From Alphaproteobacteria bacterium (GTDB lineage Bacteria > Pseudomonadota > Alphaproteobacteria > CADEGL01), in assembly GCA_046153685.1 (NCBI GenBank), contig JBJXGH010000180.1, positions 14,604 through 78,603 on the forward strand: a stretch of DNA of 64,000 nucleotides, written 5' to 3'. Below the pieces are notes generated by a model, which saw nothing but the letters and a program-made list of their open reading frames with translations, made no database searches and was not told the origin of the DNA. Shown in pieces: positions 5,576 through 19,182 of the stretch. How positions within the stretch are numbered: the stretch's first letter is position 1; every line of letters starts with the position of its first letter. The position numbers and the translations under genes were made by a program.

Positions 5576-6739
5576 ATGCGAATTCTACACGCGATTTCAA
5601 GCCTGGCGCCCGAGCTCGGCGGCCCGTCCAAGGCCTGTATCGAAATGGCGCGTGCGGTCGCGGCGCGCGGCCATGAGGTCGAGATCTATACGACCGACTG
5701 GGGTCTTGAGGGCAAGGTTTGCGCGGATGGCCGGGCGGTCGAGGACGGCGGCGTCGCCGTGCGCTCCTTCGCCGTGCACGCCCCGCGCTTCTGGAAAACC
5801 TCCCTGCCGATGTGCGCCGCGCTGCGGCGGGAAATCGCCACGTTCGACGTCGTCCATCTGCATTCGCTCTATCTGTTCCATGATTGGGCGGTACCGGCGT
5901 TATGCCGTCGCGGGGGCGTGCCTTATATCGTGCGGCCTCACGGCACGCTCGACCCCTATATTCGCCGGCGGCACCGCTGGCGGAAGGCGCTGGTGGAGGT
6001 TCTGTACCAGAATCGCGCCCTGCGGCACGCGGCGGCGATTCACTATACGACCGCGGAGGAAATGCGCTTGGCGACGCCGCACGCCCATGGTGCGCGGGGC
6101 GTGGTGGTGCCGAACGGCTTCGACCTCGACCAATTCGACCACATGCCGGACGGCAGCGGCTTCCGCGCGCGCTACCCCGAAACCGCTGGTCGGCGCATCG
6201 TCTTGTTCCTCGGACGGCTGCACGAGAAAAAAGGCCTCGACCTTCTGATCCCGGCCTTTGCGCGCACTTTGGCCGCGCGCCCCGATTTGCACTTGATCGT
6301 GGGCGGGCCCGATGACGGCATGGCGGCGGAACTTGGGCGCTGGGTCGCGCGCGAAGGCATCGCGGACCGGGTCAGCGCGATCGGCATGCTCGCGGGCGAG
6401 GACAAGAGGATGGCGCTCGCCGCCGCCGAGCTGTTCGTGTTGCCGTCCTATAGCGAGAATTTCGGCATCGCGGTGCTTGAAGCGATGGCGGCGGGTTTGC
6501 CGGTCCTGATTTCGGACCAGGTCAATCTGTGGCGCGAAGTCACCGATGCTTCGGCCGGCATCGTCGTCGCATGTCGCGCGGACGCGGTCGAGGCGGGCCT
6601 TGCGCGTCTGCTCGATGATCCTGACATGGCGCGGCACATGGGCCGGGCGGGTGCCGCGCTCGCGCGCGAGAAATTCGCTTGGCCGCTCGTGGCGGCGGCG
6701 CTTGAGGCGCTCTATGTTTCGGTGCGCGCAAGCAAATAA
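5576..6739 (+). CDS. Glycosyltransferase family 4
   Basis: MRILHAISSLAPELGGPSK N-terminus and a C-terminal ...SYSENFGIAVLEAMAAGLPVLISD (E-X7-E motif region); GGGGG SD-like tract upstream. Confidence 0.8.
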   Translation: MRILHAISSLAPELGGPSKACIEMARAVAARGHEVEIYTTDWGLEGKVCADGRAVEDGGVAVRSFAVHAPRFWKTSLPMCAALRREIATFDVVHLHSLYLFHDWAVPALCRRGGVPYIVRPHGTLDPYIRRRHRWRKALVEVLYQNRALRHAAAIHYTTAEEMRLATPHAHGARGVVVPNGFDLDQFDHMPDGSGFRARYPETAGRRIVLFLGRLHEKKGLDLLIPAFARTLAARPDLHLIVGGPDDGMAAELGRWVAREGIADRVSAIGMLAGEDKRMALAAAELFVLPSYSENFGIAVLEAMAAGLPVLISDQVNLWREVTDASAGIVVACRADAVEAGLARLLDDPDMARHMGRAGAALAREKFAWPLVAAALEALYVSVRASK

Positions 6740-8463
6740 TCGCCGAGCGCGAGGACGTCCATATTGGTGCGCAGGAAGCAGTCGAGCGCTTGCTCGGGCG
6801 TGCAGACGACCGGCTCGTTCTCGTTGAACGAAGTGTTCAGCACCATGGGTATGCCGGTCTCCGCGGCGAAGCTCGAAATCAGCCGGTGATAGCGCGGATT
6901 GGCCGCGCGCGTGACGGTTTGCAGCCGGCCCGAGCCGTCGACATGGCAGACGGCGGGAATGCGCTCGCGTTTCTCTGGCCGAATCTGGAAGACTTGCATC
7001 ATGAACGGCACGTCGTCGTCGGTCTCGAACCACGACGGCGCTTCCTCGCGCAATACCGAAGGCGCGAAGGGTCGGAAGGATTCGCGCCGCTTGATCTTGC
7101 GATTGAGGACGTCCTTCATGTCCGAACGGCGAGGGTCGGCGAGGATCGAGCGGTTGCCGAGCGCGCGCGGCCCCCATTCCATCCGCCCCTGGAACCAGCC
7201 GATGATCTTGCCGTCGGCGATGGCGCGCGCCACGCGCGCACAGAGCACGCCCTCGTCGCTTACGCGCTCGGGGCGGCAGCCGGATGCCTCGACTTCGCGC
7301 GCTCGCCCCGCCAGCGCCACGCGCACGGCTTCATCGTCGTATTCCGGTCCCCAATGGGCATGATCCATGACGAAGCGTCGAACGCCGCCCGTGCGCCGCC
7401 AGGTCTCGAACGCCGCCCCGACGGCGCCGCCCGCATCGCCCGCGGCCGCCTGGACATAGCAGTGTCGATACGGGGTTTGGCCGTACAATCTGCCATTGGC
7501 CACCGAATTGAAGCCGCAGCCGCCCGCGAGCGCGATATTGTCCGTGCCGTGGCGGCCGTGCAGGGCGCGGTAAAGCGTGAACACCGCTTCCTCGAACATG
7601 GCTTGGGCCGAACGCGCGATGTCGCGATGGCGATCCTCGAGCGGCGCATCCGGCGGCCGCGCGGGTCCAAGCAATTCCTCAAGCGCCGGCGTGAACAATC
7701 GGCCGCCGAATGGCGCGCCTCCAGACCACTCGTAACTCACTTTCTCGATGTGGTGCCGGAAATAACGTAAGTCCAATGCAAACGTGCCGTCGCGCGCCAC
7801 GCGCACGATGCGCCGCATGTCCTCGTGCCGTGCAGGCACGCCATAGGGCGCGAGGCCCATGACCTTGTATTCGTCGCCGTAATGCGGAAAGCCTAGATAC
7901 TGGGTGATCGCCTGATAAAAGATGCCGAGCGAGTGCGGAAACATCACCCCGCCCTCGACGCTCAGGGTCTGGCCTTGTCCCAAACCCCACGCGGCCGACG
8001 AGAAATCGCCGAAGCCGTCGATGGAGACGATGCTCGCGCGTTCGAAGGGCGAGACGAGGAAAGCCGAGGCCAGATGGCAAAGATGGTGCTCGATGTGATG
8101 CACCGTTCCGGAGAATGCCGCGTCCGGAAAGGCGCTGGCGAGTTCGGTTTCGATGCCCTGCCATTTTCGCGCATTGCGCAACCGCGCGGCCACGAGGCCG
8201 AGGCTCGGTCGGCGCAGGAGGGCATAGGCGATCTTGCGTCCGAGCCGGGCGCGCGGATCGCGGTTGATTGCAACATGGGTCAGGTCCTTGAGCGCGATGC
8301 CGCCCGCATCCAGGCAATAGGCGATGGCCTGGGCGGGAAAGCCCGCCCAATGCTTGATGCGCCGGAAGCGCTCTTCCTCGGCGGCCGCGACCAGCACTCC
8401 GTCGGTGACGAGGCAGGCCGAGGAATCGCCGTGATAGGCGTTGATGCCGAGGATGTGGACCAC
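6712..8463 (-). CDS. Carbamoyltransferase, NodU/CmcH family (sugar O-carbamoyltransferase)
   Basis: MVHILGINAYHGDSSACLV... HHLCHLASAF... matches the NodU/CmcH family. Its 3' end overlaps the convergent GT4 gene by 28 bp. Confidence 0.85.
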   Translation of the reverse strand: MVHILGINAYHGDSSACLVTDGVLVAAAEEERFRRIKHWAGFPAQAIAYCLDAGGIALKDLTHVAINRDPRARLGRKIAYALLRRPSLGLVAARLRNARKWQGIETELASAFPDAAFSGTVHHIEHHLCHLASAFLVSPFERASIVSIDGFGDFSSAAWGLGQGQTLSVEGGVMFPHSLGIFYQAITQYLGFPHYGDEYKVMGLAPYGVPARHEDMRRIVRVARDGTFALDLRYFRHHIEKVSYEWSGGAPFGGRLFTPALEELLGPARPPDAPLEDRHRDIARSAQAMFEEAVFTLYRALHGRHGTDNIALAGGCGFNSVANGRLYGQTPYRHCYVQAAAGDAGGAVGAAFETWRRTGGVRRFVMDHAHWGPEYDDEAVRVALAGRAREVEASGCRPERVSDEGVLCARVARAIADGKIIGWFQGRMEWGPRALGNRSILADPRRSDMKDVLNRKIKRRESFRPFAPSVLREEAPSWFETDDDVPFMMQVFQIRPEKRERIPAVCHVDGSGRLQTVTRAANPRYHRLISSFAAETGIPMVLNTSFNENEPVVCTPEQALDCFLRTNMDVLALGDYLLARTET

Positions 8464-8466
8464 GGC

Positions 8467-9243
8467 TCAATCGCCGCGCGCGAGTTCGCGGTCGATCAGA
8501 TAGAGCTTCAAGATGAACTCCGCCGCCGTGCGCTGGAAGCAATAGTGCAGGCCCGCGCGACCATCGAGGATGAGGCCGCGCACGAGCAACGCGTAGAAAA
8601 ACGTCACGAACGGCATGACATAGGTGCAGCGGCGCAGCCGGTCGGCCAGGCCCAATTCGCCGAACGCGGCATCGGCGAGCTTCGCCGCTTCGAGGCCCAT
8701 ATAGCGGTTTTGCGAGGCGACCCAATGGGCCAGCGGCTTGCGGTCGTCGTGCAGGATGGGATGGCGCAAATCGGCGACGGCGCCGTCGATTGCGACCTCG
8801 TCGGTATGGCCGTCCTGATGGAAGCGGCCGCGCGCGCGGCGAAAGAGTCGCGGGCGCGGCGGGTACAGCGTCGCGCGCAGCCGGCGGCCATGGACGCAAT
8901 ACACAAAGCGCGTGCGGTATGCGGCGATGTCGGGCCTAGGCGCCAACGCGCCGATTTCCGCCACCAGGCCCTCGGTCAGCACGTAATCGGCATCGAGCCG
9001 CATCATCCACTCGGTGCGGATGCCGGTTTCGGCCTGCCCGAAGGTCCATTGATTGGCGTGGTTGTCGAAAGGCCGGACAAAGACGCGCACATTGGAATAG
9101 CGCCGGGCGATGGCGAGCGTGTCGTCGGTGCTCGCGCTATCGACTACGACGATGTCGGGCGCCCAGGTCAGGCGATCGAGCGTGCGGCCGATATTCGGCG
9201 CCTCGTTATAGGTCAGAATGACCGGGGTGATCTGATCGTGCAC
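8467..9243 (-). CDS. Glycosyltransferase family 2
   Basis: ITPVILTYNEAPNIGRTLDRL...VVVDSASTDDT...RLDADY (GT2 DXD region). The listed ORF extends upstream through Arg-rich junk; start set at GTG 9243 (VHDQITPV) and remains uncertain. Confidence 0.65.
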   Translation of the reverse strand: MHDQITPVILTYNEAPNIGRTLDRLTWAPDIVVVDSASTDDTLAIARRYSNVRVFVRPFDNHANQWTFGQAETGIRTEWMMRLDADYVLTEGLVAEIGALAPRPDIAAYRTRFVYCVHGRRLRATLYPPRPRLFRRARGRFHQDGHTDEVAIDGAVADLRHPILHDDRKPLAHWVASQNRYMGLEAAKLADAAFGELGLADRLRRCTYVMPFVTFFYALLVRGLILDGRAGLHYCFQRTAAEFILKLYLIDRELARGD

Positions 9244-9434
9244 CGCGCAACTCCCGCGCGGGCCCTGATCGTGCCGCGCGCCCCAAGAGTAGGTGCGCGC
9301 CGCCTGTTCCCGCAAGCGCACTCGCGCGCCTCGCCGCCGACCGCCCCGCCGCCGACCATTTGGCCATCGATCATCGCGCCATAGCCGCCGCCGTGCCGCG
9401 CGGCTAAGGTGGCGCGGCTTCAAGGATAGCGACG

Positions 9435-10622
9435 GTGCGTCTGCTCATTCACGATTTCGCGGGGCATCCCTTCGCGGTGCAGCTCAGCCGGGCGCTCGCG
9501 CGCCGCGGCCATACGGTCCTGCATGTCTATGCCTCGGCCAATCCGACACCCAAGGGCGCGCTCGAGCTGAAGCCGGACGACCCCGCAGGCCTCGCCATGG
9601 AAGGTCTTGGCGTCGAAGGCCGCGGCGCCTATGCGCGCGATAATTTTTTCGGCCGCTATCGTTACGAACGCGCCTATGGCCGTGCCCTGGCCGCGCGCGT
9701 GCGCCTCTGGCGGCCCGAGGCGGTGGTGCTCTGCAATACCCCGCTCGATGTGCTGGCTCCCGCTTGCCGTGCCGGGCGCGAGGTCGGCGCGCGCACCGTA
9801 TTGTGGATGCAGGATTTGCTGGGTCTGGCGGCGTTTCGCATCCTCAGCCGCCGCCTGCCGATCCTCGGCGCGGCCATCGGCTGGTACCACATCCGGCGCG
9901 AACGCCGCCTGGCGCGCTCGGCCGATGCCGTGATCGCGATCACCGGGGATTTCGTGCCGGTCCTTGCCGGATGGGGCGTGCCGCGCGCGCGTATCGCGGT
10001 CATCGCCAATTGGGGGCCGCTCGGCGAAATCGCGCCGGGCCCGCGCGACAATGACTGGGCGCGCGCGCACGCCTTGGGCGCGCGGCCGGTGTTTCTCTAC
10101 ACCGGCATGATGGGCATGAAGCACGACCCTGGCCTGATCCTCGATCTTGCCCGGCATTTCGGCGCGCGCGCCGATATTGTCGTCGTGTCCGAGGGCCGCG
10201 GCGCCAATATTCTGCGCGCCGCCGCCGCAACGGAGGGTCTTGGAAATCTGCTGATCCTGCCCTTCCAGCCCTATGACAGGCTCGGCGAGGTCTTGGCTGC
10301 GGGCGATGTCATGCTGGCGGTGCTCGAGGCCGAGGCGGGCGCCTTCGCCGTGCCGTCCAAGGTCCTGGGGTATTTCTGCGCGGGCCGTCCGGTGCTGGCC
10401 GCAATCCCGATGGAAAATCTTGCCGCTCGGCTCATCGTCGAAGCCGGGGCGGGCGTGGTCGTGGCGCCGGGCGACCGGGATTCCTGGCTGACGCAAGCCG
10501 AGCGCCTTTTTGCGGATGCGCCCGCGCGCGCGCGCATGGCGCAAGCGGCACGCGCCCATGCCGAGGCGGCGTTCGATATCGAGGCGATTGCAGCGCGGTT
10601 CGAGGGCGTGCTCGGAGCCTAA
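9435..10622 (+). CDS. Glycosyltransferase family 4
   Basis: MRLLIHDFAGHPFAVQLSRALARRGHTV N-terminus; GT-B fold with a C-terminal nucleotide-sugar-binding region. Confidence 0.8.
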   Translation: MRLLIHDFAGHPFAVQLSRALARRGHTVLHVYASANPTPKGALELKPDDPAGLAMEGLGVEGRGAYARDNFFGRYRYERAYGRALAARVRLWRPEAVVLCNTPLDVLAPACRAGREVGARTVLWMQDLLGLAAFRILSRRLPILGAAIGWYHIRRERRLARSADAVIAITGDFVPVLAGWGVPRARIAVIANWGPLGEIAPGPRDNDWARAHALGARPVFLYTGMMGMKHDPGLILDLARHFGARADIVVVSEGRGANILRAAAATEGLGNLLILPFQPYDRLGEVLAAGDVMLAVLEAEAGAFAVPSKVLGYFCAGRPVLAAIPMENLAARLIVEAGAGVVVAPGDRDSWLTQAERLFADAPARARMAQAARAHAEAAFDIEAIAARFEGVLGA

Positions 10623-10720
10623 GCGTCGCGCCGGGGACTTTGGCCGGGCGGGCGAATCCGATATACCAAAGACATGAACGACGAACGCATACCCCACGCG
10701 GACAAGACAGGAGACGGGCG

Positions 10721-12184
10721 ATGACGCGGCGCTCGGATCTTGCGGCGCTGATCGAACGCCTGGGAGGCGTCGGCGTGCTGTGCGTCGGCGATGTCATGCT
10801 CGACCGTTATGTTTACGGCAAGGTCGAACGCATTTCGCCTGAAGCGCCCATCCCCGTTCTGCTGGTCGAGCGCGAGACCGCCATGCTGGGCGGCGCCGGC
10901 AACGTGGTGCGCAATCTGGTGGCGATCGGCGCGCACCCGACCTTCGTCTCGGTCGTCGGCAACGACCCGGCCGGGCGCGAGGTGAGCGGCCTCATCGCCG
11001 CGATCGACGGGGTCGAGCCCTATCTCAATGTCGAGCGAGGCCGCGTCACCACGATCAAGTCGCGCTACGTCGCCTTGAACCAGCAATTGCTGCGCGCGGA
11101 CCGCGAAACCGTGACGCCGATCGCGGTCTCGGTCGCCGATGATCTCCGCCGCATTGCCGAAAATGCGCTTCGCGAGATTTCGGCGGTGGTGCTATCGGAC
11201 TATGGCAAAGGCGTGCTGACCGCTGATTTGACGCGCGCCGTGATCGAGGCCGCGCGCGCGGTGGACAAACCCGTCATCGTCGATCCCAAGGGCAAGGATT
11301 TCGGCCGCTATCGCGGGGCGACGATTCTCACGCCCAATCGCGCCGAACTCGCCGAGGCCACGGGACGCGCGCTCAACGACGAGGCGGAAATCGTCGAGGC
11401 CGCGCGCGCGCTGGTGCGTGACTTCGCGCTGGGTGCGGTTCTGGTCACGCGCGGCGGCGACGGCATGACCCTGGTCGAGGGAGACAGCGCGCCCTTGCAC
11501 CTTGCCGCCGAGGCGCGTGAAGTGTTCGACGTGTCGGGGGCGGGCGATACGGTCGTGGCGATCCTCGCCGCTGCCATGGCGGCGGGCCTGGAGCTGGCCG
11601 ATGCCGCGCGTCTTGCGAATACGGCGGCCGGCATCGTCGTCGGCAAGATCGGCACGGCGGTGGCATCCGGCGCCGAAATCTACGGCGCGCTGCACGACCA
11701 GGATTTGCGTGCCGGCGAGGGCAAGTTTGCCGCCCATGCCGCGGCTCTTGCGCGCGTCGCGTCCTGGAGGGCCGAGGGCAACAAGATCGGCTTCACCAAT
11801 GGCGTGTTCGATCTGCTCCATCCCGGCCATGTCTCGCTTCTGACCCAGGCCAAGGCCGCGTGCGACAAATTGGTGGTCGGCTTGAACGGCGACGCTTCGG
11901 TTGCGCGCCTCAAGGGCCCGACGCGACCAATTCAGAACGAAGCGGCGCGCGCCGCCGTGCTCGCCTCGCTCGAATCGGTCGATCTCGTGGTGGTGTTTGG
12001 CGACGACACGCCGGAGACATTGATCGAGGAGATCCGCCCCGACGTGCTGGTCAAGGGCGCGGACTATCGCATGGATCAAGTTGTCGGCGCCGAGATCGTC
12101 GCCAAGCATGGCGGCAGGGTCGTGCTCGCTGAACTCGTGGCCGGACACAGTACGACCAATACCATCGCGAAAATGACGAAATGA
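10721..12184 (+). CDS. hldE: Bifunctional D-beta-D-heptose 7-phosphate kinase / D-beta-D-heptose 1-phosphate adenylyltransferase
   Basis: N-terminal ribokinase-like domain (GVLCVGDVMLDRYVYGKVERISPEAPIPV) and C-terminal cytidylyltransferase domain (GFTNGVFDLLHPGHVSLL). Start re-anchored to ATG 10721 (MTRRSDL), which has a GGAGACGG SD. Confidence 0.85.
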   Translation: MTRRSDLAALIERLGGVGVLCVGDVMLDRYVYGKVERISPEAPIPVLLVERETAMLGGAGNVVRNLVAIGAHPTFVSVVGNDPAGREVSGLIAAIDGVEPYLNVERGRVTTIKSRYVALNQQLLRADRETVTPIAVSVADDLRRIAENALREISAVVLSDYGKGVLTADLTRAVIEAARAVDKPVIVDPKGKDFGRYRGATILTPNRAELAEATGRALNDEAEIVEAARALVRDFALGAVLVTRGGDGMTLVEGDSAPLHLAAEAREVFDVSGAGDTVVAILAAAMAAGLELADAARLANTAAGIVVGKIGTAVASGAEIYGALHDQDLRAGEGKFAAHAAALARVASWRAEGNKIGFTNGVFDLLHPGHVSLLTQAKAACDKLVVGLNGDASVARLKGPTRPIQNEAARAAVLASLESVDLVVVFGDDTPETLIEEIRPDVLVKGADYRMDQVVGAEIVAKHGGRVVLAELVAGHSTTNTIAKMTK

Positions 12185-12206
12185 TCTGCCGCGAAGCGGC
12201 GGGTCG

Positions 12207-13709
12207 TCAGTCGGTATCGGCGCTGCCGTAAATCGTGCCCTCGAGCACGAAGCGTCCGAGTTCCGGCTGCATGCGGCGCTTCAGGGCGAATTCCTCGTCC
12301 ACGCCGAAATACGCGCGCGCCACCTCGCGCCGCTTGGCAATGAGCGCGCCACGGGCGGCCAAATAGGCCTCGCGCGGCTCTCCCGGCGCGCTATGACCCT
12401 CGACGAGAACCAGACGCCGCGCCGCGCCAGGCGCGCAATCGCCGTTCAACAGATACAAGCTCACGCAGGCAGGGCCGAAATTTCTCAGGTTCCAATACGC
12501 CACGGGGTCGGACAGGATCACGACATCGTCCGCGCCCGTATTGGCGGCGACGAAGGCGCGGATTTCCTCGAACGGCACCGCGGTGTTGCGCTTGAACGGC
12601 GTATCGTTGCCCCTGAGATTGGCAAGCGCGCCGAATGCGGTCACGAGCGCGACCGCGGCGAGCGCCGTCCGCGCGGCGCGGCGCGCGAGGAAATGATGGG
12701 CGAACAGGACCGAAAGCACGAGCGCGAGATAGGCGAAGGAGCGCGGCTTGGCGAAGCCGAGCGCGACCATGGCCACGAGGGCGGCGAATTGGAACGCGAG
12801 TACCCGTGTTTGACGGTCGCGCAGGCCGCGCGCGAGCACAAACGCCGCGAAGGCACCCAGCGGAACGAGCGCGATGGATTGCACGATGCCGAGGCTGTGG
12901 CCGCCGAGAAATCCGATCGCCGTTATCGCCGCCGCGGCGACGGGCCGGCTGCCCGCGAATTGCGAGGCCATGTAGTCCGTGGGCGCGCCCTGGAGGCCAC
13001 CTGCAAGGGTCACAAGACCGGGCAAGGCGAACGCCAAGCACAGCGCGCCCTGGCCGATTTCCCGGCGCCACCGAAACCGGCCGGACAATATCCGGTCGGC
13101 CGTCAGCAGCGGATAGACGAATACGCCGAGGAAATTGACCGAAACGAGCACGCCCGCCGCGGCGGACGACACGATGGCCGCGCGCCCGGCCGCGCGTTCG
13201 CGCACGTGAAAATACAGCGTCGCCATGAACACCAAGCCGTACATCGGGTACCAGCGGATCGCATCGCCCTGGCTCACCAGAAGCGGCGTGGTCGCCAGAA
13301 AGAGGAGGGCGATCAGGCGCTCGGCGGATGAAACGCCCGCATAACCTTGGCCGGACACATCGAGGCGCAGCAGAAGACGGTGGGCGATCGCCACCGCGCC
13401 CATGCTCATGGCCAGCGACAGCGCGCGCAGGCCCGCTTCGCCCGCGCCGGATACGTGCAGCAAATAGAAGGCGAGATAGGACAGCGGCGGATGGACGTCG
13501 TAGGCGCTGGCGAAGGCCTTGAGCAGCGCGAGCGCGCCCGTCACCTTCTCAAGCAGGTCGAGCGTGTAAATTTCGTCGTCGAAGGCCGGCCGAAACACCC
13601 GCCCGCCGAGCAGGGCGATCGCCGCGTGGGCGCAGGCGGCGAACGCGGTTTCGCCCCAGAAACCGCGCGCGCCCCGTGCGGCCGCGTCCGTTGCATCGTC
13701 CACTCTCAT
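12207..13709 (-). CDS. GT-C superfamily membrane glycosyltransferase (GT39/GT83, ArnT/PMT-like); candidate polyprenyl-phospho-pentose-dependent transferase
   Basis: Multi-TM protein; MRVDDATDAAARG...FDDEIYTLDLLEKV...DVHPPLSYLAFYLL is typical of PMT/ArnT-type lipid-linked-sugar transferases. Only the C-terminal 501 codons of the listed 947-aa ORF are coding. Start ATG 13709 has an ATGA overlap with the DprE2-like stop. Confidence 0.65.
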   Translation of the reverse strand: MRVDDATDAAARGARGFWGETAFAACAHAAIALLGGRVFRPAFDDEIYTLDLLEKVTGALALLKAFASAYDVHPPLSYLAFYLLHVSGAGEAGLRALSLAMSMGAVAIAHRLLLRLDVSGQGYAGVSSAERLIALLFLATTPLLVSQGDAIRWYPMYGLVFMATLYFHVRERAAGRAAIVSSAAAGVLVSVNFLGVFVYPLLTADRILSGRFRWRREIGQGALCLAFALPGLVTLAGGLQGAPTDYMASQFAGSRPVAAAAITAIGFLGGHSLGIVQSIALVPLGAFAAFVLARGLRDRQTRVLAFQFAALVAMVALGFAKPRSFAYLALVLSVLFAHHFLARRAARTALAAVALVTAFGALANLRGNDTPFKRNTAVPFEEIRAFVAANTGADDVVILSDPVAYWNLRNFGPACVSLYLLNGDCAPGAARRLVLVEGHSAPGEPREAYLAARGALIAKRREVARAYFGVDEEFALKRRMQPELGRFVLEGTIYGSADTD

Positions 13710-14446
13710 AGTTTTATCCGTTTGAAGACCGCTTCCGGAACCGCGCGTATGGCCAGCATGATCCAGAACCAGAAGCACGGCACATAGATCACGTCCTTGC
13801 GCCGCTCGATCGCGCGCAGAATAGCGGGGGCGAGGTTTTCCGGCTTGGCCCAAAGCGGTCCCTTGGAAAAATGCGCGGTCATGGGCGTATCGACGAATCC
13901 GGGCTTGATCGTGACCACCGCCACGCCGGCGCCGTGCAGGCGTTGGCGCAACCCGCCGAGAAAAACGCCGAGCGCCGCCTTGGCCGCGCCGTACACGTAA
14001 TTGCTGGCCCGGCCCCGATCGCCCGCGACCGAGGTAATGACCGCTATGCACCCGGCGCGCCTTGCCTCGAACCGCGAAGCCAGCGGCGTCAGAAGTGCGA
14101 TGGTGGACGACGCATTGATCGCGAGTTCGGCCAATGTGCGCTCGGCCGATTCTTCGCATTCGCGTTGATCGGGCAAGGTTCCGTGGGCGATGAAGGCAAG
14201 GTCCAGGCCGCCCAGTGCCGCCTCGGCGCGCGCGATCATCGCGCCGTGCGCCGCGATATCGTTCACATCCATGGTTTCGTGGCCGACGAAGCCGGCGCCT
14301 CGAATACGCAAATCCGCGGCAATGACATCGAGTTGCCGAGCATTCCGGCCGACGAGATAAAGCGAGTCGCCTTTCGCCGCCATGAGGCGCAGCACCGCGC
14401 CCGCGATCGCGGATGTCGCGCCGAAGACCAGAACGCGTCTCATCAT
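13706..14446 (-). CDS. Short-chain dehydrogenase/reductase, DprE2-like (decaprenylphospho-2-keto-pentose reductase homologue)
   Basis: MMRRVLVFGATSAIAGAVLRL (Rossmann), ...NYVYGAAKAALGVF (YxxxK), and a C-terminal tail VPCFWFWIMLAIRAVPEAVFKRIKL resembling mycobacterial DprE2 (...[22 protein letters not shown]). Confidence 0.75.
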   Translation of the reverse strand: MMRRVLVFGATSAIAGAVLRLMAAKGDSLYLVGRNARQLDVIAADLRIRGAGFVGHETMDVNDIAAHGAMIARAEAALGGLDLAFIAHGTLPDQRECEESAERTLAELAINASSTIALLTPLASRFEARRAGCIAVITSVAGDRGRASNYVYGAAKAALGVFLGGLRQRLHGAGVAVVTIKPGFVDTPMTAHFSKGPLWAKPENLAPAILRAIERRKDVIYVPCFWFWIMLAIRAVPEAVFKRIKL

Positions 14447-15744
14447 TGCGCCCCCTCGGTCGTGCGGCGCCAGAAATCGGAGGAGATGGCGGGATCGGCG
14501 CGCCGTGCCAATTCGCGCCATCCGGGATAGCTCTGCCGGAAGAAATCGCCCGCCATGCGCGCATCCTTCGCCGGATAGAGCCGCCCGCCAGCTTCACGCA
14601 CGATGACGTCCAGTCGATCGAACAGGGTCCGCGATCGTGCGCCGCGATTGGGGAAGTCCAAAGCGAGAGTCGGACCCGCCATGGGAAAGGACAACAGTCC
14701 CGGCGAGGACAGATCGCCGAACATCTTGAGCACACCGAGCGCGCAACACTCCCCCGAGCGGGCAACCTCTTCGAGGACGGCACGCACCGCCTCCTGCCCG
14801 ACGCTCGCCGGGAGGGCGCATTGGTACTGGAAGAACCCGGCTGGGCCGTAGAGCCGGTTCCAATCCGGCAGGCCGTCGAGGGGGTAGAAAAATCCGTCGT
14901 AATGGCGCCGCGTGGTCGTGCGTCGGGCGTGGCGTGCGCGCACGACGGCGTGGAAGGCGCGCAGCGCCGGGCGGCGCACCAGATTGAACGGCGCCGTCGC
15001 GTAGAGACGCAGCCCTCGCGCCCGCAGGCGGCCGTCTTCGCCAGGAACATGGTTGGCGCGCGAAAACACGCCGGGTGCGCCCGGGGTCATGGCGTCGATC
15101 CACGCCACGGTGTGTTCGTGGCTGGCGTCGGACGCGCGCGATAGGGCGAAGAACTCGCCGAGCGAGCCGAAGGGAATGGTCTCGACCTCGAGCCAAGGGC
15201 CTGGAATCCGGCGCAATTGCAGCTCGATCCAGACGATGGCACCTGTCAGGCCCAGCCCGCCGATGGTTGCCGCGAACAATTCGGGATTCTCGTCGGGTGC
15301 GCAGATCATACGCTCGCCGTCCGCGCGCGCGAGCTCGAACCGGCGCACGTGCCGACCGAACGTGCCCGCGACATGGTGATTCTTGCCGTGGACATCGTTG
15401 GCAAGGGCGCCGCCGAGCGTCACTTCCTTGGTGCCTGGCGTCACGGGCGGAAACCAGCGGCGCGGCACGGCGATCGCCAGAAGCGCGGCCAAGCGCATGC
15501 CCGCCTCGCAGCGCACGACGCCCGTTGCGTCATCGAAGGCGATGAAGTGATCGAGCGCCGCCATGTCCCAAAGCCCGCCATCCGCGTTCAGGCCGACATC
15601 GCCGTAACTTCGCCCGGCGCCGCGCGGCAAGTACCGGGAAATCCCGGCTGCCACGGGCAAGGGCGCCTCGCGGTTCAGCGGGCGCAGGACCTCGTGTTCG
15701 GCGTGTGTCACCCGGCCCCAGGTCGTGGCGACCTCGCGCATCAA
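14443..15744 (-). CDS. FAD-linked oxidase, DprE1-like (decaprenylphosphoryl-beta-D-ribose 2'-oxidase homologue)
   Basis: Strong colinear similarity to M. tuberculosis DprE1: GRSYGDVGLNADGG, PGTKEVTLGGALANDVHGKNHHVAGTFGRHV, NRLYGPAGFFQYQ, GRLYPAKDARM. The benzothiazinone-target Cys position appears to be replaced (..PTLALDFP..). Confidence 0.8.
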   Translation of the reverse strand: MMREVATTWGRVTHAEHEVLRPLNREAPLPVAAGISRYLPRGAGRSYGDVGLNADGGLWDMAALDHFIAFDDATGVVRCEAGMRLAALLAIAVPRRWFPPVTPGTKEVTLGGALANDVHGKNHHVAGTFGRHVRRFELARADGERMICAPDENPELFAATIGGLGLTGAIVWIELQLRRIPGPWLEVETIPFGSLGEFFALSRASDASHEHTVAWIDAMTPGAPGVFSRANHVPGEDGRLRARGLRLYATAPFNLVRRPALRAFHAVVRARHARRTTTRRHYDGFFYPLDGLPDWNRLYGPAGFFQYQCALPASVGQEAVRAVLEEVARSGECCALGVLKMFGDLSSPGLLSFPMAGPTLALDFPNRGARSRTLFDRLDVIVREAGGRLYPAKDARMAGDFFRQSYPGWRELARRADPAISSDFWRRTTEGAQ

Positions 15745-15747
15745 TCT

Positions 15748-17160
15748 TCAGACGGCAAGCAGCACGACCGCGCCCGAGACGCCGAGCACGACCAAGCTGA
15801 TCCAATCGCGCGCGGCGAACACGATCGGATCGTCGTGCATCGCGCCGCGATGGGCCTTCAGCCACATGCGACTGATCCAATAGAGCACCAGTACGCACAG
15901 CGCCCAAATCGCCTCGGGCAGGCGATACAATGCCTTGACCTCGGGCGAGTTGATGTAGAGAGCGAGGACCAGTACCGCGATAAAACCCGCCGAGATGCCG
16001 AGAGTTTGCAGGATCGCCAAATCCTGCACGAAATATCCCCGACTCGTCGCGTGCGATCGGCTCTCGCGGCCCAGCGCGTCGAGCTCGCCGTAGCGCTTGA
16101 GCGCCGCCAAGCTCAAGAACAGAAACATCGAGAACAGCAGAAGCCAGAACGACAGCGGCACGGCCGCGGCCACGGCGCCGGCGACGATGCGCACGGTATA
16201 AAGTCCCGCGAGGGTGAAGATGTCCACGAGCACGTAATGCTTGAAGACGAGGGAATAGGCGAGGGTTGCGGTGTAATAGGCGGCGAGGGCAAGTCCAAAC
16301 GCCTGGGGCAGAATCGCGCACAGCGCCGCCGCGCCCGCGAGCAGCAACGGCGCCAGGGCGAGTCCGAGTCCAAGGGACAAGGCCCCCGAGGCGAAGGGGC
16401 GATGGCGTTTGCGCGGGTGCGCGCGGTCGGCGGCGAGATCGAGCAGATCGTTCACGATGTAAACCGACGAGGCGCAAAGCCCGAAGGCGAGGAACGCGAT
16501 GAATGTTTGACCGAGTGCCTCGCCGTCCACGGCGCGGTGCGCCGCCAGCAGGGGAACGAAGATCAGCACGTTCTTGACCCATTGATAGACACGCGCGGCA
16601 GCGAAGATCGCGCGCCCATTGGCGCCTCGGCGCACGACAAGGCGCTCGATTTCGGCGATGCCGGCGGCCTTGCGGGCAAGGCTTTCCGTGCCGAAGACGA
16701 GCGCGCGCCGCGCGTGCCGCCAGACCGGCAAATCGGCGGCGCAATCGCCCGCGTAGTCGAAGCCCTTATCGCCGAAACGCTCGACGAGGCGGCGGGCTTT
16801 GGCTTCGCCCTTCAGGTTCTCGCCGCCCGTGCTCGAAATCGTGCCGTCGAACAGGCCGAGATGGCGCGCGATGGCTTCGGCGGTTCTTTCGTCCGCGGCC
16901 GTGACCAGCCATGTCGGCCGGCCCGCCGCTCGTGCCGCGCGCACGAGTTCAAGCACCGCTTCGTCATAGGGCAGGCTCGCTGGATTCAGATCCGCCCGCC
17001 GCGCAATCTCGGCCTTGAATGCGGCGCGGCCGCGTGCGAGCCATAGCGGCAGGCGCGCCAAATCCTGCGGCCGGCGCTTGACGAGCGCCAAGACCCCTTC
17101 GATCAAGCTGTCTGTGCGAATAAGCGTGCGATCGAGATCGACGCACAGGGCAATGGTCAT
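15748..17160 (-). CDS. Fusion protein: N-terminal HAD-like phosphatase domain + C-terminal UbiA-family prenyltransferase (phosphoribosyl-polyprenyl-phosphate synthase-like, Rv3806c homologue)
   Basis: N-terminus MTIALCVDLDRTLIRTDSL (HAD DxDxT motif). The C-terminal 280 aa are multi-TM with NDLLDLAADRAHPRKRHRPFASG (UbiA Asp-rich motif). Start taken at ATG 17160. Confidence 0.75.
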   Translation of the reverse strand: MTIALCVDLDRTLIRTDSLIEGVLALVKRRPQDLARLPLWLARGRAAFKAEIARRADLNPASLPYDEAVLELVRAARAAGRPTWLVTAADERTAEAIARHLGLFDGTISSTGGENLKGEAKARRLVERFGDKGFDYAGDCAADLPVWRHARRALVFGTESLARKAAGIAEIERLVVRRGANGRAIFAAARVYQWVKNVLIFVPLLAAHRAVDGEALGQTFIAFLAFGLCASSVYIVNDLLDLAADRAHPRKRHRPFASGALSLGLGLALAPLLLAGAAALCAILPQAFGLALAAYYTATLAYSLVFKHYVLVDIFTLAGLYTVRIVAGAVAAAVPLSFWLLLFSMFLFLSLAALKRYGELDALGRESRSHATSRGYFVQDLAILQTLGISAGFIAVLVLALYINSPEVKALYRLPEAIWALCVLVLYWISRMWLKAHRGAMHDDPIVFAARDWISLVVLGVSGAVVLLAV

Positions 17161-17235
17161 CGCGGCGCCCGCGGATGGCATGCCATGGCGGAGGCCAGGC
17201 TGGTCCTGGGCGCGAGAATCACGAACTCATTCCTT

Positions 17236-17290
17236 TTAGTCCTGGCCTTTTGGCCCCGGCCCTTTGGTCCTGGCCTTTTGGTCCTGGCCA
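17236..17290. repeat. Short tandem repeat, about 4 copies of a 14-bp unit (TTTTGGTCCTGGCC)
   Basis: tttagtcctggcc ttttggccccggcc ctttggtcctggcc ttttggtcctggcc read directly in the intergenic region upstream of the UbiA-fusion operon. Confidence 0.6.
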
Positions 17291-17502
17291 CCATCGCCTG
17301 GAGCCCATGGCGCCGCGCCCGATCCATTCACATGTGCCCCGCATCTCCCGCACCCATCATGACCATCCTATAGGGTTGGAACAAATCGGGTCCACCCATG
17401 GTCGGCTCGGCCGTTATGGCCTGGTAGTTGCAGCAATTGGGCCGAACCTTGTGATAATCTTCTTGGCGTCCGGGGAAGATTCGCCAGCGAGAGGGGATGG
17501 AT

Positions 17503-17712
17503 ATGGCACAAGACGCTGATCGGCAACAAGAGTTGGGGTCGGTTGTGGATCTTCAACGCCGCCGCGCTCTGGCGCGCCTGGGCCTTGCAATCGGCGCGGC
17601 CTATGTCGCGCCTGTCATTTTGCATCTCGAGCGCGAAGCCAAGGCCATGGCGCCGAAGTCGCCGTGTCCGCCGCCCGGTACCGTCCCTTGTCCTTCAGGT
17701 TGCAGGTGCTAG
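17503..17712 (+). CDS. Candidate small Cys-rich peptide (69 aa): RR-containing hydrophobic N-region and C-terminal CPPPGTVPCPSGCRC
   Basis: Strong SD (GAGAGGGGA) 7 nt before ATG 17503. Translation MAQDADRQQELGSVVDLQRRRALARLGLAIGAAYVAPV...SPCPPPGTVPCPSGCRC. Codon third positions are less GC-rich than in neighbouring genes, so coding status is uncertain. Confidence 0.3.
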   Translation: MAQDADRQQELGSVVDLQRRRALARLGLAIGAAYVAPVILHLEREAKAMAPKSPCPPPGTVPCPSGCRC

Positions 17713-18039
17713 GCCCGGACGGCTGAATCGCGCTTTTTGTCCCGCCTGGCTCGCGACTTCCTTGTTTTAAATCCCGGTCTTGAATCTCGGGCGCGCCCGA
17801 TCGGCGCGCCGCGATCTCTGTTCCGTCGTCTTCCCGCTGCCGCGAGAACGGCGACGCCTAGATTTCCTGTGCGATAAACCGGCTTGCCGGCGACGATCGT
17901 CGCCCGCACAAGCAGCGCGCCCATGATGGCTGTTTGTGGCCGGCGCTCCACAATCAGCAATCATGGCCATCGGCAGATGACGCGGCTTGCGCGCCGCGTT
18001 ATGTAGGGCCTTCGCCCGTTCGAGGGCAGGGGGGACCGC

Positions 18040-19182
18040 ATGAGTTATCCGGACTGGGACACGATCCGCAATTCGACCTTCGTGCGCCATCGCTATTTCC
18101 CGCGACTGGCCGAGGAAACACCGTCATTCATGGGCCTGCCAATCGCGAGCACGCCCGAGGAGCTCAAGGGCGCGGACGCCGTCATCATCGGCGCGCCCTA
18201 TGCGGTGGGCTGGGGCTCGCAATACGCGGGCGTCGATAAGAGCCAATGGCTGGCCTCGCCGCAACGCGTGCGCCAGCAATCGATCCGCTATGGCTCAGGC
18301 TATATCCAGGATTTCAACCTCAACGTCTTCGAGCATCTGAAGGTGGTCGATTTCGGCGACGCCAATATCCCGCCCGAGGCGAACGACCAGCCGACGGTCG
18401 CGAACGTCCTGCGCGCGCAGGCGGCGGTCGAGGAAAAGGTCAACCAGGCCCTCGATGCCGGCGCCATTCCCATCGTCATCGGCCAGAACAGCCCGTGCGG
18501 CTCGTACGCCATCGGCAAGCCCATCGCCGAACGCACCAAGGGCAAGGTCGGCTGCATCTCGCTCGACACCCATTGGGACGCGGCACGCCTCGACAACGCG
18601 ACGCGCGATCCGCGCATCGCCGGCAGCGGCAGCTGGAAGCACAAGCTGTACGAGCACTTCCCGAACTACGATCCGAAAAATCTCGTCGAGATCGGCGAGC
18701 GCGGCATGCTGGAGAATCAAAACATCGTGCGCTGGTGGCTCGACCACGGCGCGAAATTTTATCCCATGTGGCGCGTGCGCACCGAACTCGGCATCGAGGG
18801 CCTGGTCAAGGAATTGCGCCACGCCTACGAGGGCACCAAGAACGTCTACGTCCATTTCGACATGGACGTGCTCGGCGGCGCGGGCCCCACATCCGGCGAC
18901 ATCCTGGGCGAACTCGCCGAACCCATCGGCATGACCGATTACGAGGTCATTCGCATCGCCCACGAAATCGGCAAGCGCGGCCTGGCCGGGTTCTCGTTCA
19001 TCTGCATCCCGCCCGGCTCGGCGGTGATCTATCGCACGATCGTCTATGTCATCATGTACATGCTCGCCGGTATCGCGGTATCGCGCATCGGCGCGGACAA
19101 ATCGGGCGCGGACAAATCGGGCGCGGGCAAGGCGGGGGCCGGAAAGGCGGCGGGCAAGGCCAAAGCCAAGGCGCGGCGCTAG
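18040..19182 (+). CDS. Arginase/agmatinase/formiminoglutamase-fold (ureohydrolase family) protein with Lys/Ala-rich C-terminal tail
   Basis: Ureohydrolase-family layout (IIGAPYAVGWG..., SLDTHWDA, VHFDMDVLGG). The canonical GGDHS motif reads GQNSPCGS and the third Asp of DxDxxDP appears to be Gly. C-terminus GADKSGADKSGAGKAGAGKAAGKAKAKARR is encoded by a direct DNA repeat. Confidence 0.65.
   Translation: MSYPDWDTIRNSTFVRHRYFPRLAEETPSFMGLPIASTPEELKGADAVIIGAPYAVGWGSQYAGVDKSQWLASPQRVRQQSIRYGSGYIQDFNLNVFEHLKVVDFGDANIPPEANDQPTVANVLRAQAAVEEKVNQALDAGAIPIVIGQNSPCGSYAIGKPIAERTKGKVGCISLDTHWDAARLDNATRDPRIAGSGSWKHKLYEHFPNYDPKNLVEIGERGMLENQNIVRWWLDHGAKFYPMWRVRTELGIEGLVKELRHAYEGTKNVYVHFDMDVLGGAGPTSGDILGELAEPIGMTDYEVIRIAHEIGKRGLAGFSFICIPPGSAVIYRTIVYVIMYMLAGIAVSRIGADKSGADKSGAGKAGAGKAAGKAKAKARR

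What the first reader, a model, noticed from the sequence alone, without database searches (positions are those of the whole stretch)
15748..17160. HAD-phosphatase fused to the UbiA phosphoribosyl-polyprenyl transferase
In the mycobacterial pathway the 5-phosphate of decaprenyl-phospho-5-phosphoribose is removed by a separate PAP2 phosphatase (Rv3807c). Here an N-terminal HAD-fold domain (DLDRT motif) is fused directly to the UbiA enzyme, and no PAP2 gene is present in the cluster. This is a plausible non-orthologous replacement of the dephosphorylation step by a fused HAD domain. It would turn the enzyme into a two-step synthase/phosphatase.
Basis: inference. Interest (0 to 1): 0.5.

Follow-up and report, generated by a model that had tools for sequence, protein, structure and literature searches.

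The report
Fused phosphatase-phosphoribosyltransferase for lipid-linked arabinose
The gene really does encode a HAD phosphatase fused to a UbiA-type lipid phosphoribosyltransferase, heading an operon that should make a lipid-linked D-arabinofuranose donor for a cell-surface glycan, but this fusion was shown experimentally in Citrobacter in 2024 and is very common, so this is an ordinary new member of a known kind.

Summary

It heads a translationally coupled operon: HAD-UbiA, DprE1-like oxidase, DprE2-like reductase, then a GT-C-fold glycosyltransferase. The operon lies in an LPS/polysaccharide gene cluster. No PAP2 gene was found in the window.

Kelly et al. (PNAS 2024, PMC11127046) showed that Citrobacter youngae ORF15, with the same architecture, makes polyprenyl-P-ribofuranose and that its HAD nucleophile removes the 5-phosphate. 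They also noted DprE1/E2 partners in Araf systems. The ORF15 catalytic residue numbers match ours with a constant offset of 3.

The fusion is a curated NCBIfam family (NF006088). It occurs in at least 7,750 protein clusters and at least 591 species genomes. DprE1 and DprE2 follow it directly in 52 of 62 loci.

Modestly new side points: the GT-C partner belongs to a small family with no Pfam model; syntenic relatives carry an unfused UbiA plus a flippase-like gene instead; no flippase gene lies in this operon.

The parts
15748..17160 (-). Gene for the bifunctional HAD phosphatase / UbiA-type polyprenyl-phosphate 5-phosphoribosyltransferase (470 aa; an upstream in-frame ATG at 17181 would give 477 aa).
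16606..17160 (-). N-terminal HAD-IB (phosphoribose phosphatase, 'PRP') domain, about aa 1-185 of the 470-aa form. Motif I is D8-L-D10-R-T12, motif II T87, motif III K121, motif IV G138-D-x-x-x-D143.
15751..16605 (-). C-terminal 9-helix UbiA-fold phosphoribosyltransferase domain carrying N237-D238-x-x-D241-x-x-x-D245 and the K/R cluster.
14443..15744 (-). DprE1-like FAD-dependent polyprenyl-phospho-ribose 2'-oxidase (433 aa). Its start lies 3 nt after the stop of the fusion gene.
   Evidence: Pfam FAD_binding_4. Best NCBIfam hit is NF053785 DprE1, 318 bits, below the 500-bit cut-off. Full-length match to M. tuberculosis DprE1 structures at E 8e-64, against 1e-13 for the next oxidase.
13706..14446 (-). 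DprE2-like SDR reductase (246 aa). Its start overlaps the DprE1 stop (ATGA).
   Evidence: Pfam adh_short. NCBIfam NF005489 at 308 bits (cut-off 267), and DprE2 model NF053786 at 170 bits (cut-off 250). Best PDB match is DprE2 21gq_C at E 5e-29, against 1e-14 for other SDRs.
12207..13709 (-). GT-C-fold membrane glycosyltransferase (500 aa), the presumed periplasmic arabinofuranosyltransferase. Its start overlaps the DprE2 stop (ATGA).

Best explanation
The ORF is a bifunctional polyprenyl-phospho-ribofuranose synthase of the C. youngae ORF15 type. Its membrane UbiA-fold domain transfers 5-phosphoribose from PRPP to a polyprenyl phosphate (probably undecaprenyl phosphate) at the cytoplasmic face. 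The cytoplasmic N-terminal HAD domain, with nucleophile Asp8 (Asp15 in 477-aa numbering), then hydrolyses the 5-phosphate to give polyprenyl-P-beta-D-ribofuranose. The two co-translated downstream enzymes, a DprE1-like FAD oxidase and a DprE2-like SDR reductase, epimerise C2' to give polyprenyl-P-D-arabinofuranose. After flipping by a transporter that is not encoded in the operon, the fourth gene product, a GT-C glycosyltransferase, transfers D-Araf to a periplasmic acceptor, most likely LPS or another surface polysaccharide given the surrounding genes. Shown here: the domain architecture, the catalytic residues, the folds, the operon structure and the conservation of the cassette. Inferred by homology: all enzymatic activities, the lipid carrier, Araf as the product and the acceptor.
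Against: There is no biochemical or glycan-structure evidence for this organism. I could not align the protein directly to ORF15 because that sequence was not retrievable. The DprE1 and DprE2 homologues score below the NCBIfam equivalog cut-offs (318/500 and 170/250), and the UbiA half is below the 'decaprenyl-phosphate phosphoribosyltransferase' cut-offs (152/207). Rv3806c Q135 (ribose O3 contact) is T here. No flippase (GtrA, SMR/ArnEF-type or PF03706) is encoded near the operon. The phosphatase step may be redundant: ORF15 D18A and the noeN deletion are leaky, and syntenic operons with an unfused UbiA show no phosphatase among their listed operon genes other than the heptose-pathway HAD/SIS gene.
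Confidence: 0.82

Rival explanations
1. The HAD domain is a phosphatase for a different substrate, or is purely structural or regulatory. Candidate substrates would be recycling of polyprenyl diphosphate to the monophosphate acceptor, hydrolysis of PRPP or a sugar phosphate, or phosphoserine as the JGI name suggests. In this reading an unlinked enzyme removes the 5-phosphate.
For: Structurally the domain is nearest to generic HAD-IB/SerB phosphatases, and substrate specificity cannot be read from the sequence. Syntenic operons work without any fused HAD. Removing the dedicated phosphatase only reduces the product in ORF15 D18A and in the noeN mutant.
Against: In ORF15, D18A switches the main product from farnesyl-P-Ribf to farnesyl-P-Rib-5-P. 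This HAD subtype is found almost only fused to this UbiA clade: nearly all listed plasmid hits of the HAD domain alone fall under genes annotated as UbiA family prenyltransferase, and the few exceptions are unannotated records, two hypothetical proteins and one weak hit (27.6% identity) to a stand-alone HAD hydrolase. The catalytic motifs and the spacing to the PRTase motif are conserved.
Confidence: 0.07
2. The operon's end product is not D-arabinofuranose. It could be ribofuranose or another pentofuranose epimer or keto-sugar, with the FAD oxidase/SDR pair doing different chemistry from mycobacterial DprE1/E2.
For: Both enzymes score below the curated DprE1/DprE2 equivalog cut-offs. The same fusion is paired with other redox enzymes elsewhere, for example a NAD-dependent epimerase on pNGR234a, and with none in 9 of 62 loci. 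Kelly et al. show that an SDR epimerase diverts the pathway to Xylf.
Against: There are full-length, specific matches to solved DprE1 (8e-64) and DprE2 (5e-29), about 15-50 orders of magnitude better than to other oxidases or SDRs. The paired-gene arrangement matches mycobacteria and the rhizobial noeC/noeH arabinosylation genes. Kelly et al. found DprE1/E2 homologues specifically in loci of Araf-containing glycans.
Confidence: 0.09
3. The protein is an aromatic prenyltransferase (4-hydroxybenzoate polyprenyltransferase) fused to a phosphoserine phosphatase, as automated JGI annotation names it.
For: JGI names for many homologues. Generic UbiA and HAD Pfam hits.
Confidence: 0.02

Closest known systems
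Citrobacter youngae O1 ORF15 (PRP-PPPRS, polyprenyl phosphoribofuranose synthase; Kelly et al., PNAS 2024, PMC11127046)
   Different: ORF15 works with no epimerase (O1, Ribf) or with an SDR epimerase (O2, Xylf), a small ArnEF-like flippase and a GT136 GT-C carrying a CBM. Here the partners are DprE1/DprE2 homologues, no flippase gene is in the operon, and the GT-C belongs to an uncurated family with a different C-terminal domain. I did not align the two sequences directly.
Mycobacterium tuberculosis Rv3806c (DPPR synthase) plus Rv3807c (PAP2 phosphatase), DprE1/DprE2
   Same: The chemistry is the same: PRPP plus polyprenyl-P, dephosphorylation, 2'-epimerisation, then GT-C transfer. The fold and the PRPP/Mg-binding residues match, as do the DprE1/DprE2 homologues.
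   Different: In mycobacteria the phosphatase is a separate PAP2 membrane protein unrelated to HAD. The lipid is decaprenyl-P, the flippase candidate is GtrA-like Rv3789, and the acceptors are galactan and lipomannan. The window protein fails the NCBIfam DPPR synthase cut-offs and belongs to the sister family NF006088.
Rhizobial Nod-factor arabinosylation operons noeCHOP (Azorhizobium caulinodans) and noeCNHOP (Rhizobium sp. IRBG74) (PMC5080398)
   Same: They are alphaproteobacterial operons encoding DprE1-like (NoeC), DprE2-like (NoeH), UbiA-like (NoeO), a transferase (NoeP) and a proposed phosphatase (NoeN) for D-Araf addition.
   Different: There the phosphatase candidate is a separate gene and the acceptor is a lipo-chitooligosaccharide. 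Here the operon lies among LPS/polysaccharide genes with no nodABC. I did not test homology of NoeN and NoeP to the HAD domain and the GT-C here.
Pseudomonas aeruginosa PA7/Pa5196 pilin D-Araf pathway (unfused PPPRS, separate phosphatase, DprE1/E2, TfpW GT-C)
   Same: It is a Gram-negative polyprenyl-P-Araf donor pathway with a GT-C transferase.
   Different: The PPPRS is unfused and the acceptor is type IV pilin. According to Kelly et al., a P. syringae homologue carries the PRP domain.
Syntenic operons in uncultured relatives (loci L083, L084, L087, L088)
   Same: They have the same GT-C family (44-47% identity), DprE1 (41%), DprE2 (51%), HldE (46%) and GT2 neighbours in the same order.
   Different: The first gene is an unfused 291-aa UbiA that passes the NCBIfam DPPR synthase cut-off and is only 32-36% identical to the window's UbiA half. 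A PF03706 flippase-like protein follows it, or is fused to it. There is no HAD domain.

Membership tests
PRP-PPPRS bifunctional polyprenyl-P-ribofuranose synthase (C. youngae ORF15 type; NCBIfam NF006088/PRK08238) | One polypeptide with an N-terminal soluble HAD-fold domain followed by a 9-TM UbiA-fold domain | tested here: met
PRP-PPPRS bifunctional polyprenyl-P-ribofuranose synthase (C. youngae ORF15 type; NCBIfam NF006088/PRK08238) | HAD loop-I nucleophile Asp (ORF15 D18) and the remaining HAD motifs II-IV | tested here: met
   D8/D10/T12, T87, K121 and G138...D143 are invariant in 22 sequences. DxDx[T/S] is present in 78 of 78 complete genome homologues.
PRP-PPPRS bifunctional polyprenyl-P-ribofuranose synthase (C. 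youngae ORF15 type; NCBIfam NF006088/PRK08238) | PPPRS loop II N-D-x-x-D-x-x-x-D and loop IV R-x-x-E at the ORF15 positions (N247, D248, D251, D255, R366, E369) | tested here: met
   N244, D245, D248, D252, R363 and E366 in 477-aa numbering, a constant offset of 3 from the numbers in the paper.
PRP-PPPRS bifunctional polyprenyl-P-ribofuranose synthase (C. youngae ORF15 type; NCBIfam NF006088/PRK08238) | Direct sequence homology to ORF15 (AWU66546.1) | not tested
   The ORF15 sequence is not in any collection I could query by name. Only residue numbers from the paper were compared.
PRP-PPPRS bifunctional polyprenyl-P-ribofuranose synthase (C. youngae ORF15 type; NCBIfam NF006088/PRK08238) | PRPP-dependent formation of polyprenyl-P-Ribf, with the 5-phosphate intermediate accumulating in the HAD Asp mutant | not testable with these tools
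   This needs a membrane enzyme assay with TLC and MS as in PMC11127046.
Rv3806c-type decaprenyl-phosphate phosphoribosyltransferase (NCBIfam NF008976-8) | UbiA fold with the PRPP, 5'-phosphate and Mg binding residues R22, K28, Y70, N73, D77, K87, R90, Q135, Y138, K143, Y157 | tested here: met
Rv3806c-type decaprenyl-phosphate phosphoribosyltransferase (NCBIfam NF008976-8) | Score above the curated equivalog cut-off | tested here: not met
   152 against 207, 139 against 234 and 130 against 474 bits. The unfused UbiA of syntenic relatives does pass (265 against 234). The window protein works like Rv3806c but belongs to the sister family NF006088.
DprE1/DprE2 2'-epimerase pair | Adjacent FAD_binding_4 oxidase and SDR reductase that are specifically most similar to DprE1 and DprE2 | tested here: met
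   PDB DprE1 at 8e-64 and DprE2 at 5e-29, both far ahead of other family members. The genes are adjacent and translationally coupled.
DprE1/DprE2 2'-epimerase pair | Score above the NCBIfam equivalog cut-offs (NF053785, NF053786) | tested here: not met
   318 against 500 and 170 against 250 bits. The SDR passes NF005489 (308 against 267).
Three-component extracytoplasmic pentofuranose glycosylation system (Kelly et al. 2024) | A lipid-donor synthase (PPPRS) and a GT-C glycosyltransferase encoded together | tested here: met
   The fusion gene and the GT-C-fold protein are in one operon.
Three-component extracytoplasmic pentofuranose glycosylation system (Kelly et al. 2024) | A dedicated small flippase (ArnEF/'MATE'-like, SMR or GtrA) in the locus | tested here: not met
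   No GtrA or PF03706 homologue was found by tblastn, and there is no small multi-TM ORF near the operon. The only candidates are a Wzx-like gene at 541-1962 and a distant EamA gene at 43361-44191.
Three-component extracytoplasmic pentofuranose glycosylation system (Kelly et al. 2024) | The GT-C belongs to CAZy GT136 | not tested
   No GT136 sequence was available. The window's GT-C has no Pfam, NCBIfam or PDB sequence match. It lacks the 150-aa CBM described for ORF12.
Rv3807c-type PAP2 phosphatase route | A PAP2 (KxxxxxxRP / PSGH / SRxxxxxHxxxD) membrane phosphatase encoded in the cluster | tested here: not met
   No co-located motif set in any of the six frames. No PAP2 Pfam hit in the 40 ORFs scanned.

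The most novel reading that the evidence does not exclude
The fourth gene (12207-13709) may found an undescribed GT-C family that adds D-arabinofuranose to LPS core or O-chain in Hyphomicrobiales. The family has about 100 clusters at 50% identity with E<=1e-30 among 1.84 billion representatives, and no Pfam, NCBIfam or PDB sequence match. The same operon frame exists in two interchangeable donor-synthesis versions: 'HAD-UbiA without a flippase gene' (this window) and 'unfused UbiA plus PF03706 flippase-like protein without a phosphatase' (L083, L087, L088). That would mean both the 5-dephosphorylation and the flipping of polyprenyl-P-pentose can be supplied in trans or by unrecognised activities, and that PF03706 proteins are polyprenyl-P-pentofuranose flippases.
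Probability: 0.35. Interest if true: 0.4.

Novelty: new member of a known kind. Interest (0 to 1): 0.2.

Why it matters
The finding shows that a first-pass reader can infer a real bifunctional enzyme correctly from raw sequence. The biology itself is established. The HAD ('PRP')-UbiA fusion is the experimentally characterised entry point of a widespread pathway for periplasmic pentofuranose decoration of bacterial glycans.

The practical value is in annotation. Thousands of homologues, including genes on Rhizobium, Sinorhizobium, Azospirillum and Burkholderia replicons, are still labelled only 'UbiA family prenyltransferase' or '4-hydroxybenzoate polyprenyltransferase/phosphoserine phosphatase'. 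The tight HAD-UbiA/DprE1/DprE2 cassette (52 of 62 loci here) predicts D-Araf-containing surface glycans in many Gram-negative lineages where none has been described.

The variable GT-C partner and the HAD/PF03706 module swap are leads for finding new arabinofuranosyltransferases and the missing flippase.

Tried and rejected
(1) I looked for a PAP2 gene with a six-frame motif scan and with Pfam on the operon, its neighbours and the multi-TM ORFs found by the hydropathy scan. None was found.

(2) I looked for a flippase near the operon by tblastn with GtrA-like and PF03706-like neighbours from other loci and with a hydropathy scan. None was found. The Wzx-like gene at 541-1962 remains only a candidate.

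(3) I tested whether the window's GT-C is related to the uncharacterised membrane proteins next to the fusion gene in R. etli IE4771 and S. fredii NGR234 by hhalign. There was no significant similarity (probability below 2%).

(4) I ran Pfam on distant members of the GT-C family. The only hit was one sub-threshold PMT_2 match (22 bits against 26).

(5) Foldseek against afdb50 was unavailable.

(6) The promoter/terminator scan of 12000-18100 gave nothing above shuffled expectation.

(7) I could not retrieve C. youngae ORF15/ORF12, NoeN or NoeP sequences, so those comparisons rest on published residue numbers and descriptions only.

(8) The aromatic prenyltransferase/phosphoserine phosphatase reading was considered and rejected (see rivals).

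Full report
**The observation**

The window is GC-rich (about 65%). On the minus strand there is one uninterrupted ORF, 15748..17181 (477 aa). The nearest database homologue (P0001, 92% identical, 470 aa) starts there too.

Pfam finds a HAD domain (PF12710, aa 15-153, E 1e-10; PF00702, 3e-08) and a UbiA domain (PF01040, aa 212-445, 5e-17), all above their gathering scores. NCBIfam model NF006088 (PRK08238, blandly named 'UbiA family prenyltransferase') matches end to end (6-477 against 8-480 of 482; 635 bits, cut-off 351). So the fusion is real, and it is already a curated family.

**The HAD half**

A 22-sequence alignment (53-92% identity to the query) has the following invariant residues in 470-aa numbering:
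- motif I: D8, D10, T12
- motif II: T87
- motif III: K121
- motif IV: G138...D143

Among the 79 homologues from different species genomes, 78 are complete. All 78 have DxDx[T/S] 223-233 residues upstream of the UbiA NDxxDxxxD motif, most often 229-230. The one exception is cut off by a contig end.

**The UbiA half**

The Rv3806c structure paper (PMC10994848) lists the Mg/PRPP ligands and says the phosphoribose-binding residues are not shared with the rest of the UbiA superfamily. Mapping through the phmmer alignment gives:
- conserved: R22, K28, Y70, N73, D77, K87, R90, Y138, K143, Y157
- changed: Q135, which is T here

This is therefore a PRPP-dependent polyprenyl-phosphate phosphoribosyltransferase, not a 4-hydroxybenzoate prenyltransferase as JGI's automatic names say. 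It does fail the NCBIfam 'decaprenyl-phosphate phosphoribosyltransferase' cut-offs (152 against 207 bits). I file it under the sister family NF006088, not as an Rv3806c equivalog.

**The surroundings**

The gene heads a four-gene operon on the minus strand.
- 15744-14443: a FAD_binding_4 oxidase. Its best NCBIfam hit is DprE1 (318 bits, below the 500-bit cut-off). It matches solved DprE1 structures over its full length at E 8e-64, against 1e-13 for the next oxidase.
- 14446-13706: an SDR whose start overlaps the previous stop (ATGA). It hits the DprE2 model (170 bits, cut-off 250), passes NF005489, and matches PDB DprE2 at 5e-29, against 1e-14 for other SDRs.
- 13709-12207: again an ATGA overlap. 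This encodes a 500-aa membrane protein with no Pfam, NCBIfam or PDB sequence match.

Around the operon lie these genes:
- HldE (10640-12184)
- GT4 (9435-10622)
- GT2 (8467-9423)
- a carbamoyltransferase (6712-8463)
- GT4 (5576-6739)
- a methyltransferase
- an asparagine-synthase-like gene
- a GT9 heptosyltransferase (1824-2900)
- a Wzx-like Polysacc_synt protein (541-1962)

This is an LPS/polysaccharide locus.

No PAP2 gene is present. The six-frame scan found no co-located PAP2 motif set, and none of the 40 ORFs put through Pfam, including the multi-TM ORFs found by the hydropathy scan, is PAP2.

**What is already known**

Kelly, Duong, Nothof, Lowary and Whitfield (PNAS 2024; PMC11127046) characterised C. 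youngae O1 ORF15.
- It has an N-terminal HAD 'phosphoribose phosphatase' (PRP) domain and a C-terminal UbiA-type polyprenyl-phosphate phosphoribosyltransferase domain.
- Membranes with PRPP and farnesyl-P gave farnesyl-P-Ribf, confirmed by MS and NMR.
- The D18A variant (HAD nucleophile) gave mainly farnesyl-P-Rib-5-P.
- Mutations at N247, D248, D251 and D255 abolished or reduced activity.
- The authors state explicitly that Rv3807c is an unrelated phosphatase doing the same step in mycobacteria.
- They state that loci for Araf-containing glycans carry DprE1/E2 homologues next to the PPPRS (SI Fig. S11), and that ORF15 homologues are widespread.

Rhizobial Nod-factor arabinosylation operons (noeCHOP and noeCNHOP) are an older alphaproteobacterial precedent. 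There, a separate gene, noeN, was proposed as the phosphatase, and deleting it reduces arabinosylation but does not abolish it (PMC5080398).

**How common it is**

- The protein search returned 7,750 clusters at E<=1e-5 out of the 8,000 candidates scored, typically 470-480 aa with both domains.
They span Alpha-, Beta- and Gammaproteobacteria plus Verrucomicrobia, Nitrospirae, Acidobacteria and others.
- The nearest is a MAG named Rhizobium sp. Q54. It is 93% identical to the window at the DNA level, with the same operon and neighbours.
- Of the 62 loci with at least 2.3 kb on both sides, 52 have DprE1 and DprE2 homologues directly downstream in the same order. One has DprE1 only and nine have neither.
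- Ninety plasmids or chromids matched the query, and in 80 of them one match covers at least 80% of it. Nearly all the annotated genes under the listed matches are called just 'UbiA family prenyltransferase'.
- The HAD domain searched alone lands almost exclusively inside such genes. The few exceptions are unannotated records, two hypothetical proteins and one weak hit to a stand-alone HAD hydrolase.

Other contexts show the modularity Kelly et al. describe:
- R. etli IE4771: fusion, GtrA, FAD oxidase, SDR, two unannotated ~520-aa proteins, then GT87.
- pNGR234a: fusion, a NAD-dependent epimerase, a 658-aa unannotated protein, and nearby an SMR family transporter gene next to a small hypothetical gene.
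- Many Xanthomonadales and Burkholderiales add a PF03706 flippase-like gene upstream, and an Epimerase-family gene, an amine-oxidase-like flavoprotein and GtrA downstream.

**What is a little unusual here**

1. The GT-C partner belongs to a small family. A word-indexed search found 66 clusters. An exhaustive profile search of 1.84 billion representatives found 608 at E<=1e-3 and 100 at E<=1e-30. No Pfam model covers it; one distant member gives a sub-threshold PMT_2 hit. It is unrelated in sequence to the membrane proteins in the R. etli and NGR234 loci.

2. Members of this GT-C family at 44-47% identity lie in a syntenic operon with GT2, DprE1 (41% identical to the window's), DprE2 (51%) and HldE (46%). 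There, however, the first gene is an unfused 291-aa UbiA that passes the NCBIfam DPPR synthase cut-off and is only 32-36% identical to the window's UbiA half. It is followed by, or in L084 fused to, a PF03706/TIGR00374 flippase-like protein. So the same operon frame carries either 'HAD-UbiA' or 'UbiA + flippase-like'.

3. The window and its 94% and 63% relatives have no flippase gene in the operon. The syntenic relatives show no phosphatase among their listed operon genes other than the heptose-pathway HAD/SIS gene. Together with the leaky D18A and noeN phenotypes, this suggests both steps can be supplied in trans.

**Mechanism and verdict**

The most likely pathway has five steps:
1. PRPP and polyprenyl-P give polyprenyl-P-Rib-5-P (UbiA half, cytoplasmic face).
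2. The HAD half hydrolyses the 5-phosphate.
3. The DprE1-like and DprE2-like pair oxidise and then reduce C2', giving polyprenyl-P-D-Araf.
4. An unidentified transporter flips the donor to the periplasm.
5. The GT-C enzyme transfers Araf to a surface glycan.

Architecture, residues, folds, operon structure and cassette conservation are shown here. The activities, the lipid carrier, the product and the acceptor are inferred from the C. youngae and M. tuberculosis work.

I rate it a new member of a known kind, of low interest. The GT-C family and the HAD/PF03706 module swap are minor leads.

Noticed in passing
window 17232-17289: A 14-nt tandem repeat of 4.1 copies (GGCCAGGACCAAAA on the gene's strand) lies 50-130 nt upstream of the fusion gene's start. 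The 93%-identical relative L001 has no such array at the same position, so it is a lineage-specific insertion or expansion in the operon's leader or promoter region.
   Followed up: partly
L083 4059-9509; L084 4058-9509; L087 3977-9470; L088 4046-9464: Syntenic operons in uncultured relatives have the same GT-C family, DprE1, DprE2, GT2 and HldE. Their first gene, however, is an unfused 291-aa UbiA (32-36% identical to the window's UbiA half; it passes the NCBIfam DPPR synthase cut-off), followed by a PF03706 flippase-like protein. In L084 the two are fused into one 606-aa protein. No HAD domain and no PAP2 gene is listed. This looks like a module swap between 'HAD-UbiA' and 'UbiA + flippase-like'.
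   Followed up: partly
proteins P0098, P0104 (Methylomonas paludis), P0109 (Methylomonas sp.), P0063, P0071, P0101: About 790-aa three-domain variants carry an N-terminal PF03706 (LPG_synthase_TM, flippase-like) domain in front of HAD-UbiA. In 22 of 80 genome loci a separate PF03706 gene sits directly upstream of the fusion gene. This suggests PF03706 proteins flip polyprenyl-P-pentofuranose.
   Followed up: partly
window 12207-13709 (-): The GT-C-fold protein belongs to a small family with no Pfam, NCBIfam or PDB sequence match (608 representatives at E<=1e-3 among 1.84 billion). Invariant residues are FDDE, DVHPP, GDAxRWYP, KPR, PxKR and two Cys. More distant members (for example P0143, 36% identical) are not next to a donor-synthesis cassette.
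   Followed up: yes
window 541-1962 (-) and 43361-44191 (+): No GtrA, SMR/ArnEF or PF03706 flippase is encoded near the operon. The only transporter candidates in the window are a Wzx-like Polysacc_synt protein at the far end of the polysaccharide cluster and an unlinked EamA-family protein.
   Followed up: partly
L082 (S. fredii NGR234 pNGR234a 299625-306503) and L081 (R. etli IE4771 pRetIE4771d): On the NGR234 symbiosis plasmid the fusion gene is followed by a NAD-dependent epimerase instead of DprE1/E2, then a 658-aa unannotated protein, with a GMC oxidoreductase and an SMR family transporter gene next to a small hypothetical gene nearby. On the R. etli plasmid it is followed by GtrA, DprE1-like, DprE2-like, two unannotated ~520-aa proteins and a GT87 gene. 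All the fusion genes are annotated only as 'UbiA family prenyltransferase'.
   Followed up: partly
genome loci L003-L078 (clusters 5-7): In about 30 of 80 loci, mainly Xanthomonadales and Burkholderiales, the HAD-UbiA/DprE1/DprE2 cassette is extended by an Epimerase-family NAD protein, an amine-oxidase-like flavoprotein and a GtrA-family protein in a fixed order. The product of this larger conserved cluster is unknown to me.
   Followed up: partly
window 6712-8463 (-), 2908-4851 (-), 4686-5423 (-): The surrounding polysaccharide cluster encodes a NodU-like O-carbamoyltransferase (far below the NodU equivalog cut-off), an asparagine-synthase-like amidotransferase and a SAM methyltransferase. 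The glycan may therefore also be carbamoylated, amidated and methylated.
   Followed up: no
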